Position numbers and translations under genes: made by a program. The notes under the pieces were generated by a model. It saw only the letters and a program-made list of their open reading frames with translations, was not told the DNA's origin and did no database searches. A stretch of 64,000 nt of DNA, taken from positions 256,001 to 320,000 of the forward strand of contig CAVSNY010000003.1 in assembly GCA_963729605.1 (NCBI GenBank), read 5' to 3'. This document shows, piece after piece, positions 15,500 through 31,563 of the stretch. Each line of letters begins with the position of its first letter. Position 1 is the stretch's first letter. Source of the DNA: an uncultured Gammaproteobacteria bacterium. GTDB lineage: Bacteria; Pseudomonadota; Gammaproteobacteria; DRLM01.

Positions 15500-15704
15500 C
15501 GACGAGCCAAGGAGAGCGAAGCGAGGGGGAGGAGCCCGCGGTAGCCGCGATGCGGCGTCAGCCAGCGTGGTAGCCATGACGCGCTGCGTAGTAGCGTGTC
15601 GTGGCGTTTGCCTGGCGTCCGGGGCGAAAGGAATCAACGTCGCGAGACCGAGGTCGATTCGCACACGGAGGTGCGAATCGTTTCCTGAGGGCCGCGACAC
15701 ATCG
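15500..15704 (+). repeat. Structured non-coding repeat, MITE-like (copy 1, 205 bp)
   Basis: Near-identical inverted copy at 31260-31491; several internal hairpins. Confidence 0.85.
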
Positions 15705-15772
15705 GAAGGCCTTAGGCTCTGTTGACATTTTGCCAGTCCGGGTGGGATATAGGCGGAATTTTGAAGGACGCG

Positions 15773-15946
15773 ATGAACAGATCAGTACTTACGGATAAGC
15801 AGTGGGAAATAATACGGGGTTATCTGCGCAATCATCCGCGCGTCTATGTTGGAAATGAAGAGCAGTGTCGGCAGTTTTTGGACGCGGTATTGTGGATACT
15901 CAGAAGTGGCGGACAATGGCGGCTCTTACCCAAAGAGAAAGGCGAT
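15773..15946 (+). pseudogene. IS5-family transposase, N-terminal fragment
   Basis: MNRSVLTDKQWEII..CRQFLDAVLWILRSGGQWRLLPKEKG, after which similarity stops. Confidence 0.8.
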
Positions 15947-16151
15947 AGGCATCCTCTTGCCGTCTGTTTCTTCGCATCCTCCGGTCCGATTGCCGCAGAT
16001 TGCTATCCGCCAATCAGCACCAGCCGCGTATCAAAAAGTGCTTGCTCATCACCCCCTGAACGCACCGCAGGATGGCGACAAGCAACACAACGAGCAGCCC
16101 TTCAACCTGACCGAGAATCCGCCGATGACCACCGCGATTCACGCGCAGCAC

Positions 16152-16333
16152 CTTGAGGTGGGTCTTCTTGGTGGTCAGCAGCGGGAACCGTGCCGACAGA
16201 TCGAAACGCATCTGATGGCCGAACAGGCTCAACGTCCCGGTGCCGGTGTGGTCGCCTTTCCTCGCCCCGTGGGCGAGCACATCGCGCAACAACCGCAGGT
16301 ATTGCTGCTCCAAGAGTCGACGCTTCCGCTCAT
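16152..16333 (-). pseudogene. thyA: Thymidylate synthase, N-terminal fragment
   Basis: [47 protein letters not shown], then truncated; the ATG at 16333 is out of frame. Confidence 0.8.
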
Positions 16334-28909: not shown

Positions 28910-29101
28910 GCCTTCATCTCCTGTGACGACTATGTATTGGGATCGACTCAAGGCCGGGCCAAACCCTGGCTGACCGAGCTTCCAGTGCGTTCGCTCAGTC
29001 CCGCCCATTGGGTGCGGTCACAATTATCAATTTTTTACAAAGACAATAAAAGTCGTTTATTCTTACATAACTACGCGGAAAAAATTGCTGATAGGGGCCG
29101 G

Positions 29102-30043
29102 ATGAATCTCAAGCACCTGCGCTACTTCTGGGTGACCGCACATGCCGGGAGCGTTGCTGCGGCGGGCAACCAGCTTCATCTGACGCCGCAAACCGTCGGC
29201 GCCCAGATCAAGCTGCTCGAGAACGAGCTCGGGACAGCCTTGTTCAAACCCGCTGGGCGCGGCCTCGAATTGACCGAAGCGGGGCGCGTCGCTCTTTCCT
29301 ACGCCGACGAGATCTTTGCGCTCGGTCAGGAGATGGTTTCGTCGCTGCGAGCCACCGGTATCCCGGAACACGCGGCAGCGGCGTTTCGTGTAGGAGTTTC
29401 CGACGCAGTCCCCAAATCGCTGACCCACCGTTTGCTGGCTTCGCTGAGGCGGCCGACGAAGCCGGTCCGGCTGGTCTGCCGCGAAGGCTCGATCGAGGCC
29501 TTGCTCGGCGAATTGGCCCTGCACCGGCTGGAGATGGTGTTGGCCGATCGTCCCATGCCGGCCGGATTGGCCGTCCGCGCACACAGCCGCAAGCTGGGCG
29601 AATGCGCTCTTGCCTTCTTCGCTCCTCCACGGCTCGTGCGGCAGGATACGGTCTTCCCGGCCTGCCTGAACGGAGCCCCGCTGCTGTTACCCGGACAGAA
29701 CGCGGCGGTACGGGGCGAAATCGACCGCTGGCTGGGCGAGGTGCGCCTGTCCCCACGAGTCGTCGGTGAATTCGACGACAGCGCCCTGATGAAAGTTTTT
29801 GCTCAGGCGGGTGAGGGCTATTTCCCTGCGCCAGCCATCATCTCGGATGAGATCTGCGCGCGCTATGGCGTCAGCGAGGTGGGGCGGGTGGATGAAATAC
29901 GCGAAGCGTTCTGGTTGATCAGCACCGAGCGGCGCATTCAGCACCCGGAGGTTCGCGCCGTGCTCGAGGCCGCCCGTGGGGCCGTCTTCAGCACGGCTGC
30001 CGGCGGCGAAGCAGTGCGGCAACAAACGTGTCTCGATCGATGA
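29102..30043 (+). CDS. nhaR: LysR-family Na+-responsive activator NhaR
   Basis: MNLKHLRYFW..GSV..LHLTPQTV, VGVSDAVPKS, GEFDDSALMKVF and ERRIQHP motifs. Confidence 0.85.
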   Translation: MNLKHLRYFWVTAHAGSVAAAGNQLHLTPQTVGAQIKLLENELGTALFKPAGRGLELTEAGRVALSYADEIFALGQEMVSSLRATGIPEHAAAAFRVGVSDAVPKSLTHRLLASLRRPTKPVRLVCREGSIEALLGELALHRLEMVLADRPMPAGLAVRAHSRKLGECALAFFAPPRLVRQDTVFPACLNGAPLLLPGQNAAVRGEIDRWLGEVRLSPRVVGEFDDSALMKVFAQAGEGYFPAPAIISDEICARYGVSEVGRVDEIREAFWLISTERRIQHPEVRAVLEAARGAVFSTAAGGEAVRQQTCLDR

Positions 30044-30993
30044 TGTTGCACCTCACCTCCTGCGCAAGCGATTTGGCCGTCGCCGTGGACCTGCTGCGAG
30101 CAGGCGAACTGGTGGCCTTGCCTACCGAGACCGTCTACGGGCTGGCTGCCGACGCGACCAATGCCGACGCTGTGCACGCCATCTTTCATGCCAAAGGCCG
30201 CCCCGCCGATCATCCTCTGATCGTGCATATCGCCGCGGCCGAACAACTGCCGGTCTGGGCCGACGAGGTCCCGGAGGCGGCCTGGCGGCTGGCTTCTGCG
30301 TTCTGGCCTGGGCCGCTGACATTGGTGCTGCCTGCGGCGCCGGCCGTCTCGCCGCTGTTGACGGGAGGCCAGACAACGATCGCGCTGCGTGTGCCGGCCC
30401 ATCCGGTGTTTCAGGCCGTGTTGCGGCAGTTCGGCCGAGGCTTGGCCGCACCATCCGCAAATCCCTTTGGTCGCATCAGCCCGACCACCGCGACGCATGT
30501 GCAGTGCCACTTGGCCGGAAGGATCGCGGCGGTTGTCGATGGCGGCCCATGCCCGGTCGGTATCGAATCCACCATCGTGGATCTCAGCGGCGACCAGCCC
30601 CGCATTTTGCGGCCTGGTATGATCGCCGTCGAGGCCGTCGCGCAGCATCTGCCTCGAATCGCCACCACTGGAGCCCCTGCGCCGCGCGTACCGGGTACGC
30701 TGGCCTCGCATTACGCGCCACGCAAGCCGTGCTTCAGGATTCCGATCGATCTGCACAAGGAACCGTTCTCGGGTCAGCGTCTGGGACTGCTTGCGACTCG
30801 TCCCGTCAACTGGCCGGTGGCGAGATTCTGGCCGATGCCAGCGTACCCTGAAGACTACGCGCGTGTGCTGTATTCGACACTGCACCAAGCCGATGCCAGT
30901 GACCGCGACGTCCTGCTGATCGCACTGCCACCAGACGAACCGTCATGGGTGACCATACAGGACCGGATCCGCCGCGCGACGCGATCTCTTTAG
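30028..30993 (+). CDS. Threonylcarbamoyl-AMP synthase (Sua5/TsaC2 type)
   Basis: PTETVYGLAAD, KGRPADHPLIVH, FWPGPLT, APSANPFG, GIESTIVD and PG.LASHYAP motifs. Confidence 0.92.
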   Translation: MSRSMMLHLTSCASDLAVAVDLLRAGELVALPTETVYGLAADATNADAVHAIFHAKGRPADHPLIVHIAAAEQLPVWADEVPEAAWRLASAFWPGPLTLVLPAAPAVSPLLTGGQTTIALRVPAHPVFQAVLRQFGRGLAAPSANPFGRISPTTATHVQCHLAGRIAAVVDGGPCPVGIESTIVDLSGDQPRILRPGMIAVEAVAQHLPRIATTGAPAPRVPGTLASHYAPRKPCFRIPIDLHKEPFSGQRLGLLATRPVNWPVARFWPMPAYPEDYARVLYSTLHQADASDRDVLLIALPPDEPSWVTIQDRIRRATRSL

Positions 30994-31110
30994 CAGACAG
31001 TGGCAGTTGCAGCTTGGCGGAACGCCGCCGCGATGCAGTGCGGAAGCGAGTAGCTCACGGGGCTGGGGCACGCGGCCGGGGGACGGCGCGGACGCCAATC
31101 TGGGGCAAGT

Positions 31111-31563
31111 CGGTCGTGTCGCCCGGCGTGGTGTAGGTTCTAGAGTGGTCATCGGCGGCACCTGGCTTAGGTTTGGGTTTCGACGACCAACCTGAACACA
31201 AGGAACCACCGATGACCGACGAGATGATGAACCTGCAGGCGCTTCTGGAGAAGAGCCCGCGATGTGTCGCGGCCCTCAGGAAACGATACGCACGTCCGTG
31301 TGCGAATCGACCTCGGTCTCGCGACGTTGATTCCTTTCGCCCCGGACGCCCTGCGTCCGCCACGACACGCTACTACGCAGCGCGTCATGGCTACCACACT
31401 GGCTGACCCCGCGTCGCGGCTAAAGTCCGGCTGTCTCACTCTTGCTGGACCGCGGGCTCCTCCCCCTCGCTTCGCTCTCCTTGGCTCGTCGAACGCCGAT
31501 CTGCTACGCGAGATGATTGGTTTTGCCAGCCAGAGGCTGATGGAGCTGGAAGTGGGCGCGCTG
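31111..31563 (+). mobile_element. IS256-family left end and truncated transposase, interrupted by repeat copy 2
   Basis: End-like GGTCGTGTCGCCCGGCGTGGTGTAG; MTDEMMNLQALLEKSP[insert]NADLLREMIGFASQRLMELEVGAL is typical of an IS256 N-terminus. Confidence 0.75.
31260..31491 (-). repeat. Structured non-coding repeat, MITE-like (copy 2, 232 bp)
   Basis: Inverted copy of 15500-15704 carrying an extra 27 bp. Confidence 0.85.

What the first reader, a model, noticed from the sequence alone, without database searches (positions are those of the whole stretch)
15500..31491. Highly structured ~205-232 bp mobile repeat that inserts without target duplication
Seen: two inverted copies, 15500-15704 and 31260-31491, the second with 27 extra bp. 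The ends are only weakly inverted (CGACGAG.. / ..CACATCG). Removing copy 2 restores the IS256 reading frame (AAG AGC CCG|AAC GCC GAT, KSPNADLLRE), so it is an insertion with no visible target duplication, and the two flanks share no target motif. Inside are a 15-bp stem with three G-U/T pairs (15573-15605), which favours one strand, and a 10-bp stem (15655-15680) enclosed by GTCGCG/CGCGAC. One copy lies outside the IS5 ends and one inside the cargo, suggesting movement within this genome. Inference: a non-autonomous element moved as single-stranded DNA or RNA (HUH/REP-like or IS110-like), or a mobile ncRNA.
Basis: partly seen in the sequence, partly recalled or inferred. Interest (0 to 1): 0.7.

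Follow-up and report, generated by a model that had tools for sequence, protein, structure and literature searches.

The report
Small gene-less mobile repeat, no duplication
A 205-base, hairpin-rich piece of selfish DNA with no gene of its own has recently copied itself around the genomes of one genus of uncultured bacteria, always landing four bases after a C and leaving no footprint, and no known jumping-gene enzyme family explains it.

Summary
Window 15500-15704 (+) and 31260-31491 (-) are inverted copies of one repeat. The repeat has about 9 copies in this genome and 14-32 matches in each of three congeners, including 11 copies 98-100% identical in one of them. It was not found outside the genus.

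Its ends are sharp: 5' CGACGAG ... CACATCG 3'. Two empty-site comparisons show insertion with no target duplication and no retained core.

Only the top strand folds well. It forms two long hairpins with many G-T/G-U pairs. I found no longer copy carrying a gene.

The "27 extra bp" of copy 2 is a second, tiny mobile insertion. It also sits in frame inside protein genes of congeners.

The most likely mechanism is single-strand nick-and-join transposition by an enzyme supplied in trans (HUH/RAYT-like). However, defining features of IS200/IS605, REP-RAYT, IS91 and IS110 were each tested and not met. 5'-CNNN| is also the cleavage signature of type IA topoisomerase I, which is an open and more novel lead.

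Verdict: a real mobile element, a new variant of a known kind, with the mechanism unresolved.

The parts
15500..15704 (+). Copy 1 of the 205-nt element, full length, top strand on +.
   Evidence: The nhmmer model matches positions 1-205.
31260..31491 (-). Copy 2 of the element (232 nt = 205 + 27), top strand on -. It is inserted in an IS256-type transposase gene fragment.
31422..31448 (-). 27-nt mini-insertion nested in copy 2 after element position 43. It is an independent small mobile imperfect palindrome.
   Evidence: The same 27-mer occurs in G003 element copies at two sites and in frame in two protein genes of congeners.
15496..15499 (+). Target tetranucleotide 5'-CAGG abutting the 5' end of copy 1 (C at -4).
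31492..31495 (-). Target tetranucleotide 5'-CGTT (read on the - strand) abutting the 5' end of copy 2 (C at -4).
15553..15621 (+). Long irregular hairpin A (element 54-122). It includes the 14-bp stem 15573-15605, which has a GTAG at its 5' foot and several G-T pairs.
15639..15698 (+). Long irregular hairpin B (element 140-199). It is made of the GTCGCG/CGCGAC stem, a 5-bp stem and the 10-bp stem 15655-15680. A 6-nt tail ACATCG follows.
   Evidence: Covariance model R1 was built from this domain.
15500..15536 (+). Purine-rich 5' leader of the element, unpaired in the consensus structure. It is the region expanded into a 15-nt tandem array in another copy of this genome.
   Evidence: unpaired in the structure counted there; the single-sequence fold pairs part of it.
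31212..31259 (+). IS256-type transposase gene fragment, codons 1-16, upstream half of the interrupted target.
   Evidence: compared with L053.
31492..31566 (+). IS256-type transposase gene fragment, continuation of the reading frame after the insertion. It is itself truncated at about 31566 against an integrase fragment.

Best explanation
This is a genus-restricted, 205-nt, gene-less transposable element.

Shown:
- It has sharp ends, 5' CGACGAG ... CACATCG 3'.
- It inserts cleanly, with no duplication, no loss and no shared core.
- It lands immediately 3' of a 5'-C-N-N-N site in relatively AT-rich DNA.
- It has multiplied recently.
- Only its top strand folds into two long hairpins.

Inferred:
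- It moves as a defined single DNA strand by two nick-and-join reactions. One is at the flank/5'-end junction and one at the 3' end. A 5'-phosphotyrosyl-type enzyme supplied in trans would do this, as in 'peel-and-paste' transposition.
- The best candidate among genes present is the RAYT-type HUH Y1 protein found in all four genomes. The element carries GTAG motifs, one at the foot of a hairpin, and two copies lie directly beside RAYT genes.
- The enzyme assignment is the weakest step.
For: - Copy number and spread: about 9 copies in G000, and 19, 32 and 14 matches in the three congeners.
- Recent burst: 11 copies in G001 are 98-100% identical.
- Sharp common ends appear in 22 full copies with unrelated flanks.
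- Empty site 1: the IS256 halves abut exactly.
- Empty site 2: a copy nested in another copy sits between model positions 183 and 184, with no gain or loss (L040).
- Target: C at -4 in 43 of 49 distinct left flanks, P = 5e-20, and in 32 of 34 copies whose first 7 nt are intact. The 48 right flanks show no signal.
- Flanks have 52-54% GC against 61% for the genome.
- Strand asymmetry: the top strand is more stable in 25 of 26 copies. ssDNA MFE is -50.2 (z -2.1) for the top strand against -38.8 (z -0.6) for the bottom.
- Structure: 88.3% of 1223 cells are paired. Double-sided changes occur in 17 cells against 9.6 in shuffles (2 of 500 shuffles reach it).
- No gene-bearing copy was found and no recurrent neighbouring gene.
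- RAYT homologues are present in 3 of 3 congeners plus G000.
- A diverged 3' domain lies 57 nt downstream of the G003 RAYT stop codon, on the same strand.
- The G002:C47 copy abuts a RAYT fragment with a GTAG hairpin.
- The master copy has 3 GTAG and 0 CTAC on the top strand.
- Published basis: HUH Y1 enzymes act on folded single strands without target duplication (PMC10055086 and PMC8266576, passages read).
Against: - No conserved 4-5-nt target motif of the IS200/IS605 kind was found. Only one base is fixed.
- There is no replication-strand bias. The top strand lies on the G-rich strand in 5 of 9 G000 copies and 4 of 11 young G001 copies. Local GC skew is a noisy proxy.
- TnpB/IS605 OrfB is absent in 4 of 4 genomes.
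- The only Y1 genes are RAYT-like. TnpA_REP cuts between C and T (PMC3333891, passages read), whereas the junctions here are N|C and G|N.
- The G000 RAYT has no element beside it.
- The G001 RAYT copy, in the genome with the burst, is frameshifted in the assembly. This may be a low-coverage error.
- The hairpins near the two ends are unlike each other, and the first one lies 37 nt from the 5' end.
- The two RAYT adjacencies could be chance in mobile-DNA-rich regions.
Confidence: 0.4

Rival explanations
1. Transposase-free spread through the host's own type IA topoisomerase (TopA). The target is cut where topoisomerase I cuts single-stranded DNA, 4 nt after a C. The element strand, folded into hairpins, is joined into that break by the enzyme's rejoining reaction. 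The donor's 5' junction carries the same C-N-N-N site and so can be cut the same way.
For: - The only fixed target feature is C at -4, in 43 of 49 flanks. This is exactly the published selectivity of bacterial and archaeal topoisomerase I (PMC3467081, abstract read).
- Topoisomerase I acts on single-stranded or easily unwound DNA. The flanks are AT-richer than the genome and the element is strand-asymmetric.
- It would explain why no dedicated transposase or autonomous copy was found.
- Each genome has one type IA gene.
Against: - The element's own 3' end has A, not C, at -4 (ends ...CATCG). The same rule therefore cannot define the 3' cut.
- TopA is universal, yet the element is confined to one genus.
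- No precedent for transposition by a type IA topoisomerase was seen in the papers I read. I made no dedicated literature search for one.
- The C could equally be read by an HUH enzyme.
Confidence: 0.12
2. Rolling-circle (IS91/ISCR-type, HUH Y2) mobilisation. A Y2 transposase nicks at one end, displaces the top strand, and terminates at the other end.
For: - Y2_Tnp matches were found in 3 of 4 genomes.
- An IS91-like fragment lies about 190-400 nt from one G001 copy.
- IS91-type elements give no duplication and have a target motif abutting only one end (recalled, not from a call).
- Both 5'- and 3'-truncated copies exist.
Against: - All Y2 matches are fragments or interrupted by stops or frameshifts.
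- No similarity was found between the element and the IS91-like loci.
- The flank tetranucleotides are C-N-N-N, not GTTC/CTTG (the IS91 motif is recalled).
- No Y2 match was found in G003, which is 75% complete.
Confidence: 0.1
3. A mobile non-coding RNA. The top strand is transcribed, folds, and is copied back into DNA by a reverse transcriptase in trans.
For: - Many G-U-type pairs occur only on the top strand.
- About ten 5'-truncated copies keep the 3' end.
- RVT_1 genes occur in 3 of 4 genomes.
Against: - The exact common 5' end has no promoter-like site at or before copy 1.
- There was no Rfam match at E <= 1.
- Copies lack a tail, a duplication or a variable 3' end.
- 3'-truncated copies are almost as common as 5'-truncated ones.
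- No element similarity was found near the reverse transcriptase genes.
- G-T pairs are also tolerated in folded DNA.
- Expression could not be tested.
Confidence: 0.1
4. Site-specific recombinase insertion of a circular double-stranded form, by an IS110 DEDD, IS607 serine or tyrosine recombinase.
For: - IS110-type genes occur in 3 of 4 genomes, with two in G001.
- The element begins and ends with CG, which could be a crossover core.
- These families give little or no duplication (recalled).
Against: - A shared CG core predicts that one CG stays in the target. Both empty sites show none.
- There is no conserved sequence on the right flank and only one fixed base on the left. This is unlike IS110 targets.
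- No similarity was found to the DNA around the IS110 genes.
- The strand asymmetry of folding would be unexplained.
Confidence: 0.06

Closest known systems
PATEs (palindrome-associated transposable elements), the non-autonomous derivatives of IS200/IS605
   Same: - Gene-less and a few hundred nt or less.
- No terminal inverted repeats and no target duplication.
- Hairpins near the ends and strand-specific folding.
- Insertion directly 3' of a short flank motif.
- Mobilised in trans (PMC10055086, passages read).
   Different: - Only one flank base (C at -4) is fixed, instead of a 4-5-nt motif.
- There is no TnpB or omega-RNA partner (0 of 4 genomes).
- No IS200/IS605 parent with the same ends was found.
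- There is no replication-strand bias.
- The two end-proximal hairpins are unrelated to each other.
REP / REPIN elements with RAYT (TnpA_REP) Y1 proteins
   Same: - RAYT genes are present in all four genomes.
- The element carries GTAG motifs, one at a hairpin foot.
- Two copies abut RAYT genes.
- REPs also move without a known footprint and occur inside genes (PMC3733652, passages read).
   Different: - REPs are 20-40 nt and REPINs are symmetric doublets. This element is an asymmetric 205-nt unit with fixed ends.
- TnpA_REP cuts C|T (PMC3333891). The junctions here are N|C and G|N.
- The hairpin next to the local RAYT is unrelated in sequence.
IS91 / ISCR rolling-circle elements
   Same: - No duplication.
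- The target signal is on one side only.
- Y2 gene fragments are present.
   Different: - There is no GTTC/CTTG target.
- There is no end similarity.
- No intact Y2 gene was seen.
Small dispersed repeats (SDR) of cyanobacteria and intragenic REP/RPE insertions. This comparison is for the nested 27-mer only.
   Same: - It is a repeat of about 20-30 nt.
- It is found nested in other repeats and, in frame, inside genes.
- No target duplication is visible.
- Sources: the SDR paper (Elhai 2008) was seen only as a citation and one sentence in PMC4390886. Intragenic REPs are from PMC3733652, passages read.
   Different: - It occurs in a gammaproteobacterial genus and carries no GTAG or CGTC tag.
- It is always followed by T.
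- Two inverted copies inside one 205-nt element create a new long-range stem.

Membership tests
IS200/IS605 (as a PATE) | Insertion without target duplication | tested here: met
   The IS256 halves abut exactly against an intact homologue. A nested copy in L040 shows no gain or loss.
IS200/IS605 (as a PATE) | Conserved 4-5-nt transposon-adjacent motif abutting the left end | tested here: not met
   Only C at -4 is fixed (43 of 49). Positions -3 to -1 vary, with 32 different tetranucleotides among 45 flanks.
IS200/IS605 (as a PATE) | Cognate Y1 TnpA and/or TnpB/IscB in the genome, with shared ends | tested here: not met
   PF07282 matched 0 of 4 genomes. The Y1 hits are RAYT-like. No end similarity was found around them by BLAST, except one diverged 3' domain next to the G003 RAYT.
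IS200/IS605 (as a PATE) | Orientation bias towards the lagging-strand template | tested here: not met
   The top strand is on the G-rich strand in 5 of 9 G000 copies and 4 of 11 young G001 copies. The GC-skew proxy is noisy.
IS200/IS605 (as a PATE) | Similar subterminal hairpins at both ends | tested here: inconclusive
   A hairpin ends 6 nt from the 3' end. The first hairpin starts 37 nt from the 5' end. The two are unrelated in sequence.
REP/REPIN-RAYT | GTAG tetranucleotide at the 5' foot of a hairpin | tested here: inconclusive
   There are 3 GTAG and 0 CTAC on the top strand. One GTAG overlaps the foot of the 14-bp stem. Three occurrences in 205 nt is only mildly above chance.
REP/REPIN-RAYT | RAYT gene present and flanked by the repeat | tested here: inconclusive
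   RAYT homologues are in all 4 genomes. A repeat lies beside the G003 gene and beside a G002 fragment, but not beside the G000 gene.
REP/REPIN-RAYT | Cleavage at C|T | tested here: not met
   The junctions are N|C at the 5' end and G|N at the 3' end. The rule is from PMC3333891 and PMC8266576.
REP/REPIN-RAYT | Unit of 20-40 nt, or a symmetric doublet | tested here: not met
   The unit is an asymmetric 205 nt with fixed ends.
IS91/ISCR | GTTC/CTTG target abutting one end, and ends shared with a Y2-encoding copy | tested here: not met
   Neither tetranucleotide occurs among the 45 flank tetranucleotides listed. No similarity to the Y2 loci was found. The target motif is recalled.
IS110 family | Conserved target on both sides of a retained core dinucleotide | tested here: not met
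   The right flank has no signal. No core is retained at either of the two empty sites.
Any Rfam RNA family | Match to a curated covariance model | tested here: not met
   There was no match on either copy at E <= 1.
Type IA topoisomerase cleavage site (a mechanism, not a family of elements) | C four nt 5' of the cut | tested here: inconclusive
   The feature is met at the target/5' junction (43 of 49). It is not met at the element's 3' end, which has A at -4. The rule is from the PMC3467081 abstract.

The most novel reading that the evidence does not exclude
The element has no transposase at all. It is a parasite of the cell's own type IA topoisomerase I. Topoisomerase I cuts single-stranded target DNA 4 nt after a C and rejoins it to the folded element strand. 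That would be a transposase-free kind of mobile DNA.

A second layer is the 27-nt mini-element that enters hairpin loops and reading frames. It may spread by the same or a similar host-enzyme route.
Probability: 0.1. Interest if true: 0.9.

Novelty: new variant of a known kind. Interest (0 to 1): 0.55.

Why it matters
Small gene-less repeats are common in bacterial genomes, but for most of them the enzyme that moves them is unknown.

This case is unusually clean:
- It has a young burst of near-identical copies.
- Its ends are base-exact.
- Two empty sites are proven.
- It has a one-base target rule (C at -4).

It also fails the specific tests for every family it resembles. This makes it a good system for finding either an unrecognised activity of RAYT-type HUH proteins or a role for a host topoisomerase in DNA insertion.

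The nested 27-nt insertion shows that even smaller units move in the same genomes. These units add nine codons to proteins without breaking them.

Tried and rejected
- RNA evidence: no RNA holder was listed for the locus.
- Laying contigs of four DNA runs on 15000-32000: contigs stop inside both copies and none bridges or skips them, so there was no empty site and no strand information.
- Orthologous empty sites in G000 for G001 and G003 insertions: the intergenic DNA was too diverged to place the junction.
- Search for a long, gene-carrying copy:
  - Paired end motifs up to 8 kb apart in G000 gave only chance pairs.
  - Partial copies in G001 are truncations, one of them followed directly by an IS6/IS240-type transposase gene.
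  - A 465-aa frame next to one partial copy looks like an antisense artefact.
  - A metagenome scan with the 5' end gave 7 short copies only.
- Similarity to DNA around Y1, IS110, RT and Y2 genes: none by BLAST.
- Plasmid and phage collections: no match.
- Recurrent neighbouring genes: none.
- Hairpins in the target flanks: flanks are less structured than random genome 40-mers.
- Automatic RNAalifold on the gappy 26-row alignment gave a poor consensus, so I used a structure derived from the sequences. This biases the 'cells paired' measure.
- Reading frames: one frame runs open through the element, but 205 is not a multiple of 3 and the copies are mostly intergenic. I dropped a coding reading (inspection, no call).
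- A first Pfam-based count wrongly suggested that G001 lacks any Y1 gene. A protein search corrected this.
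Full report
**1. What is there**

The window holds two inverted copies of one repeat: 15500-15704 on the + strand and 31260-31491 on the - strand. The first 43 nt are identical and the last 163 nt are 94% alike. Copy 2 has 27 extra nt after position 43. 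No other repeat of 40 nt or more exists in the window.

Context:
- Copy 1 lies between the end of an RNase D gene (14024-15184, -) and an IS5-type fragment (15722-16156).
- Copy 2 lies inside the first codons of an IS256-type transposase fragment, which abuts a truncated integrase gene.

**2. It is a dispersed family with exact ends**

The window's genome is 3.48 Mb in 7 contigs, with 61% GC.
- It has about 9 copies. Six are full length and three keep only the 3' part.
- One copy (C5:67546-68180) has its purine-rich 5' region blown up into about 440 nt of a 15-nt tandem repeat.
- In a sample of 40 relatives, matches occur in 3 of 3 genomes of the same genus. None of 8 other genomes of the family matched, apart from one 29-nt match, and none of 29 genomes of other families did.
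- With all candidates scored, the congeners have 19, 32 and 14 matches.
- In G001, eleven copies are 98-100% identical to each other, which indicates a recent burst.
- Twenty-two full copies with unrelated flanks all start CGACGAG and end CACATCG.

Wider searches found nothing beyond the genus:
- An exact two-motif scan of 185,579 species genomes gave 78 loci. A profile confirmed 21 of them, all in three MAG assemblies labelled only 'Gammaproteobacteria bacterium'.
- A covariance model of the 3' domain found hits only in the four genomes of the genus, among the 12 genomes of the order.
- Plasmid and phage collections have nothing.
- One partial copy sits at an orthologous place in G000, G002 and G003. 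The family therefore predates these species.

**3. Insertion leaves no footprint**

- The two window stretches flanking copy 2 translate to the first 16 residues and the following residues of an IS256-type transposase. An intact homologue on a Bradyrhizobium plasmid reads straight through the same point with no residue more or less.
- In G002 one copy is nested in another between model positions 183 and 184. The interrupted copy has exactly the family's length there (L040).
- Both cases exclude a duplication. They also exclude a retained CG core, which a serine-recombinase or IS110-type crossover at the element's CG...CG ends would leave.

**4.

- Among 49 distinct left flanks, including 4 new ones from metagenome contigs, 43 have C at position -4. 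The background C frequency is 0.25, giving P = 5e-20.
- Among the 34 copies whose first seven bases are intact, 32 have it.
- C is rare at -5 (3 of 46). Positions -3 to -1 vary, and the 48 right flanks show nothing.
- In both empty sites this C belongs to the target, not to the element.
- Flanks are AT-richer than the genome and are not hairpin-rich.

**5. Structure**

The top strand can form:
- a 37-nt purine-rich leader;
- a 4-5-bp hairpin;
- an A-rich linker;
- a long irregular hairpin B (140-199, made of three stacked stems);
- a 6-nt tail.

Counts on 26 distinct copies:
- 88.3% of 1223 cells are paired, against at most 49% when partners are slid. That control is favoured by the way I derived the structure.
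- Double-sided changes occur in 17 cells, against 9.6 in shuffles (2 of 500 shuffles reach it).
- The covariation score is 0.137 against 0.125 (14 of 500 shuffles reach it).
- Support is therefore real but modest, as expected for a young family.

Many pairs alternate between G-C or A-U and G-U. On the bottom strand these would be mismatches. Accordingly:
- The top strand is the more stable one in 25 of 26 copies.
- As DNA it folds at -50.2 kcal/mol (z -2.1), against -38.8 (z -0.6) for the bottom strand.
- Rfam has no match.
- No promoter-like site lies at copy 1.

**6. Search for the enzyme**

No copy carries a gene and no gene recurs next to copies. In the four genomes:
- TnpB-type genes are absent (0 of 4).
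- IS110-type genes are in 3 of 4.
- Reverse transcriptases are in 3 of 4.
- IS91-type Y2 fragments are in 3 of 4.
- None of these loci shares sequence with the element.

Y1 genes:
- The Y1 genes are RAYT-like.
- A protein search finds them in all four genomes. The G001 copy is split by one frameshift.
- A diverged copy of the element's 3' domain lies 57 nt after the G003 RAYT stop codon, on the same strand.
- A G002 copy abuts a RAYT fragment with a GTAG hairpin.
- The G000 RAYT has none.
- The element's top strand has three GTAG and no CTAC, and one GTAG sits at the foot of hairpin A.
- Against a RAYT role: TnpA_REP cuts between C and T (PMC3333891 and PMC8266576, passages read), which is not what the junctions show.
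- Against an IS608-like fork-dependent route: the orientation of copies shows no GC-skew bias (5 of 9; 4 of 11).

**7. Reading**

The anatomy points to movement of one defined strand by two nick-and-join steps, as HUH enzymes do. The features are exact ends, no footprint, a target signal on the 5' side only, and one-strand folding. I give this 0.4, with RAYT as the most likely supplier. I do not file the element in IS200/IS605, REP/REPIN, IS91 or IS110, because a defining feature of each was tested and not met.

A lead worth stating is that 5'-CNNN| is the known selectivity of bacterial and archaeal topoisomerase I (PMC3467081, abstract read).
- Each of these genomes has a single type IA gene.
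- A host-topoisomerase route would explain the missing transposase.
- It would not explain the 3' end (A at -4) or the restriction to one genus.
- I give it about 0.1.

**8. The 27 extra bases**

The 27 extra bases are a separate small mobile unit, an imperfect palindrome.
- G003 copies of the element carry it twice. One is at the place seen in copy 2. The other is reverse-complemented in the loop of the 10-bp stem, so the two can pair with each other.
- It also sits in frame inside an acyltransferase gene of G003.
- It sits twice, in opposite orientations, inside one 637-aa gene of G001.
- The G000 orthologues lack exactly 27 nt at each of these three places.
- A pattern search finds 1, 2, 0 and 14 sites in G000-G003 and none for the reversed-pattern control.
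- In all eleven distinct contexts listed, the unit is followed by T.
- It resembles the small dispersed repeats of cyanobacteria. I know these only from a citation and one sentence in PMC4390886, and from notes of this scan. It also resembles intragenic REPs (PMC3733652).

**9. Verdict**

The element is real, mobile and recently active, and it is confined to one genus. It is a new variant of the TSD-less, hairpin-bearing, non-autonomous kind, and its enzyme is unidentified.

Noticed in passing
window 31422-31448; also L019 1477-1501, 1627-1654 and 2456-2480; L082 1499-1526 and 2499-2526: A 27-nt imperfect palindrome is an independent mini-insertion. It is nested in copies of the 205-nt element at two sites. 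It also sits in frame (9 codons) in an acyltransferase gene of G003 and twice in one vWA/TPR-like gene of G001. The G000 orthologues lack exactly 27 nt at each of these places.
   Followed up: partly
G000:C5:67546-68180 (locus L004), outside the window: One copy of the element has its purine-rich 5' region expanded into about 440 nt of a 15-nt tandem repeat.
   Followed up: no
window 15705-31259: The 15.5-kb segment between the two inverted copies carries ilvD, an amidohydrolase, DUF6671, TerB, a Na/Ca exchanger, an M48 peptidase and SbtA. It ends in IS256 and integrase fragments. The two element copies are the only repeats of 40 nt or more in the window, so the segment looks bracketed like a composite unit. 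Whether it moves as one was not tested.
   Followed up: no
window 31567-32057 (-): A phage-type integrase gene (Arm-binding and SAM-like N-terminal domains only) is cut off where the IS256 fragment begins. The IS256 fragment is itself cut after about 40 codons. This indicates layered decay of mobile DNA.
   Followed up: partly
window 15351-15401 (-): There is a weak Rfam match to 'Betaproteobacteria toxic sRNA' (26.4 bits against a gathering score of 50). It coincides with the terminator hairpin after the RNase D gene and is probably just the terminator.
   Followed up: no
G000:C7:5-565 (L044) and G003:C68 (L045 1318-2349): A RAYT-type Y1 gene is followed by a GTAG-tagged GC-rich hairpin. In G000 it starts 5 nt from a contig end, and in G001 the homologue is split by a frameshift.
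   Followed up: partly
G000:C2:158519-159796 and one locus in each of G001-G004: Each genome searched has a single type IA topoisomerase gene. No second (topoisomerase III-like) match was found.
   Followed up: no
G000:C7:528608-528680 (L006), L071, L078/L086: A 5'-truncated copy next to a heptosyltransferase gene lies at an orthologous position in G000, G002 and G003. It is an old insertion inherited vertically.
   Followed up: no
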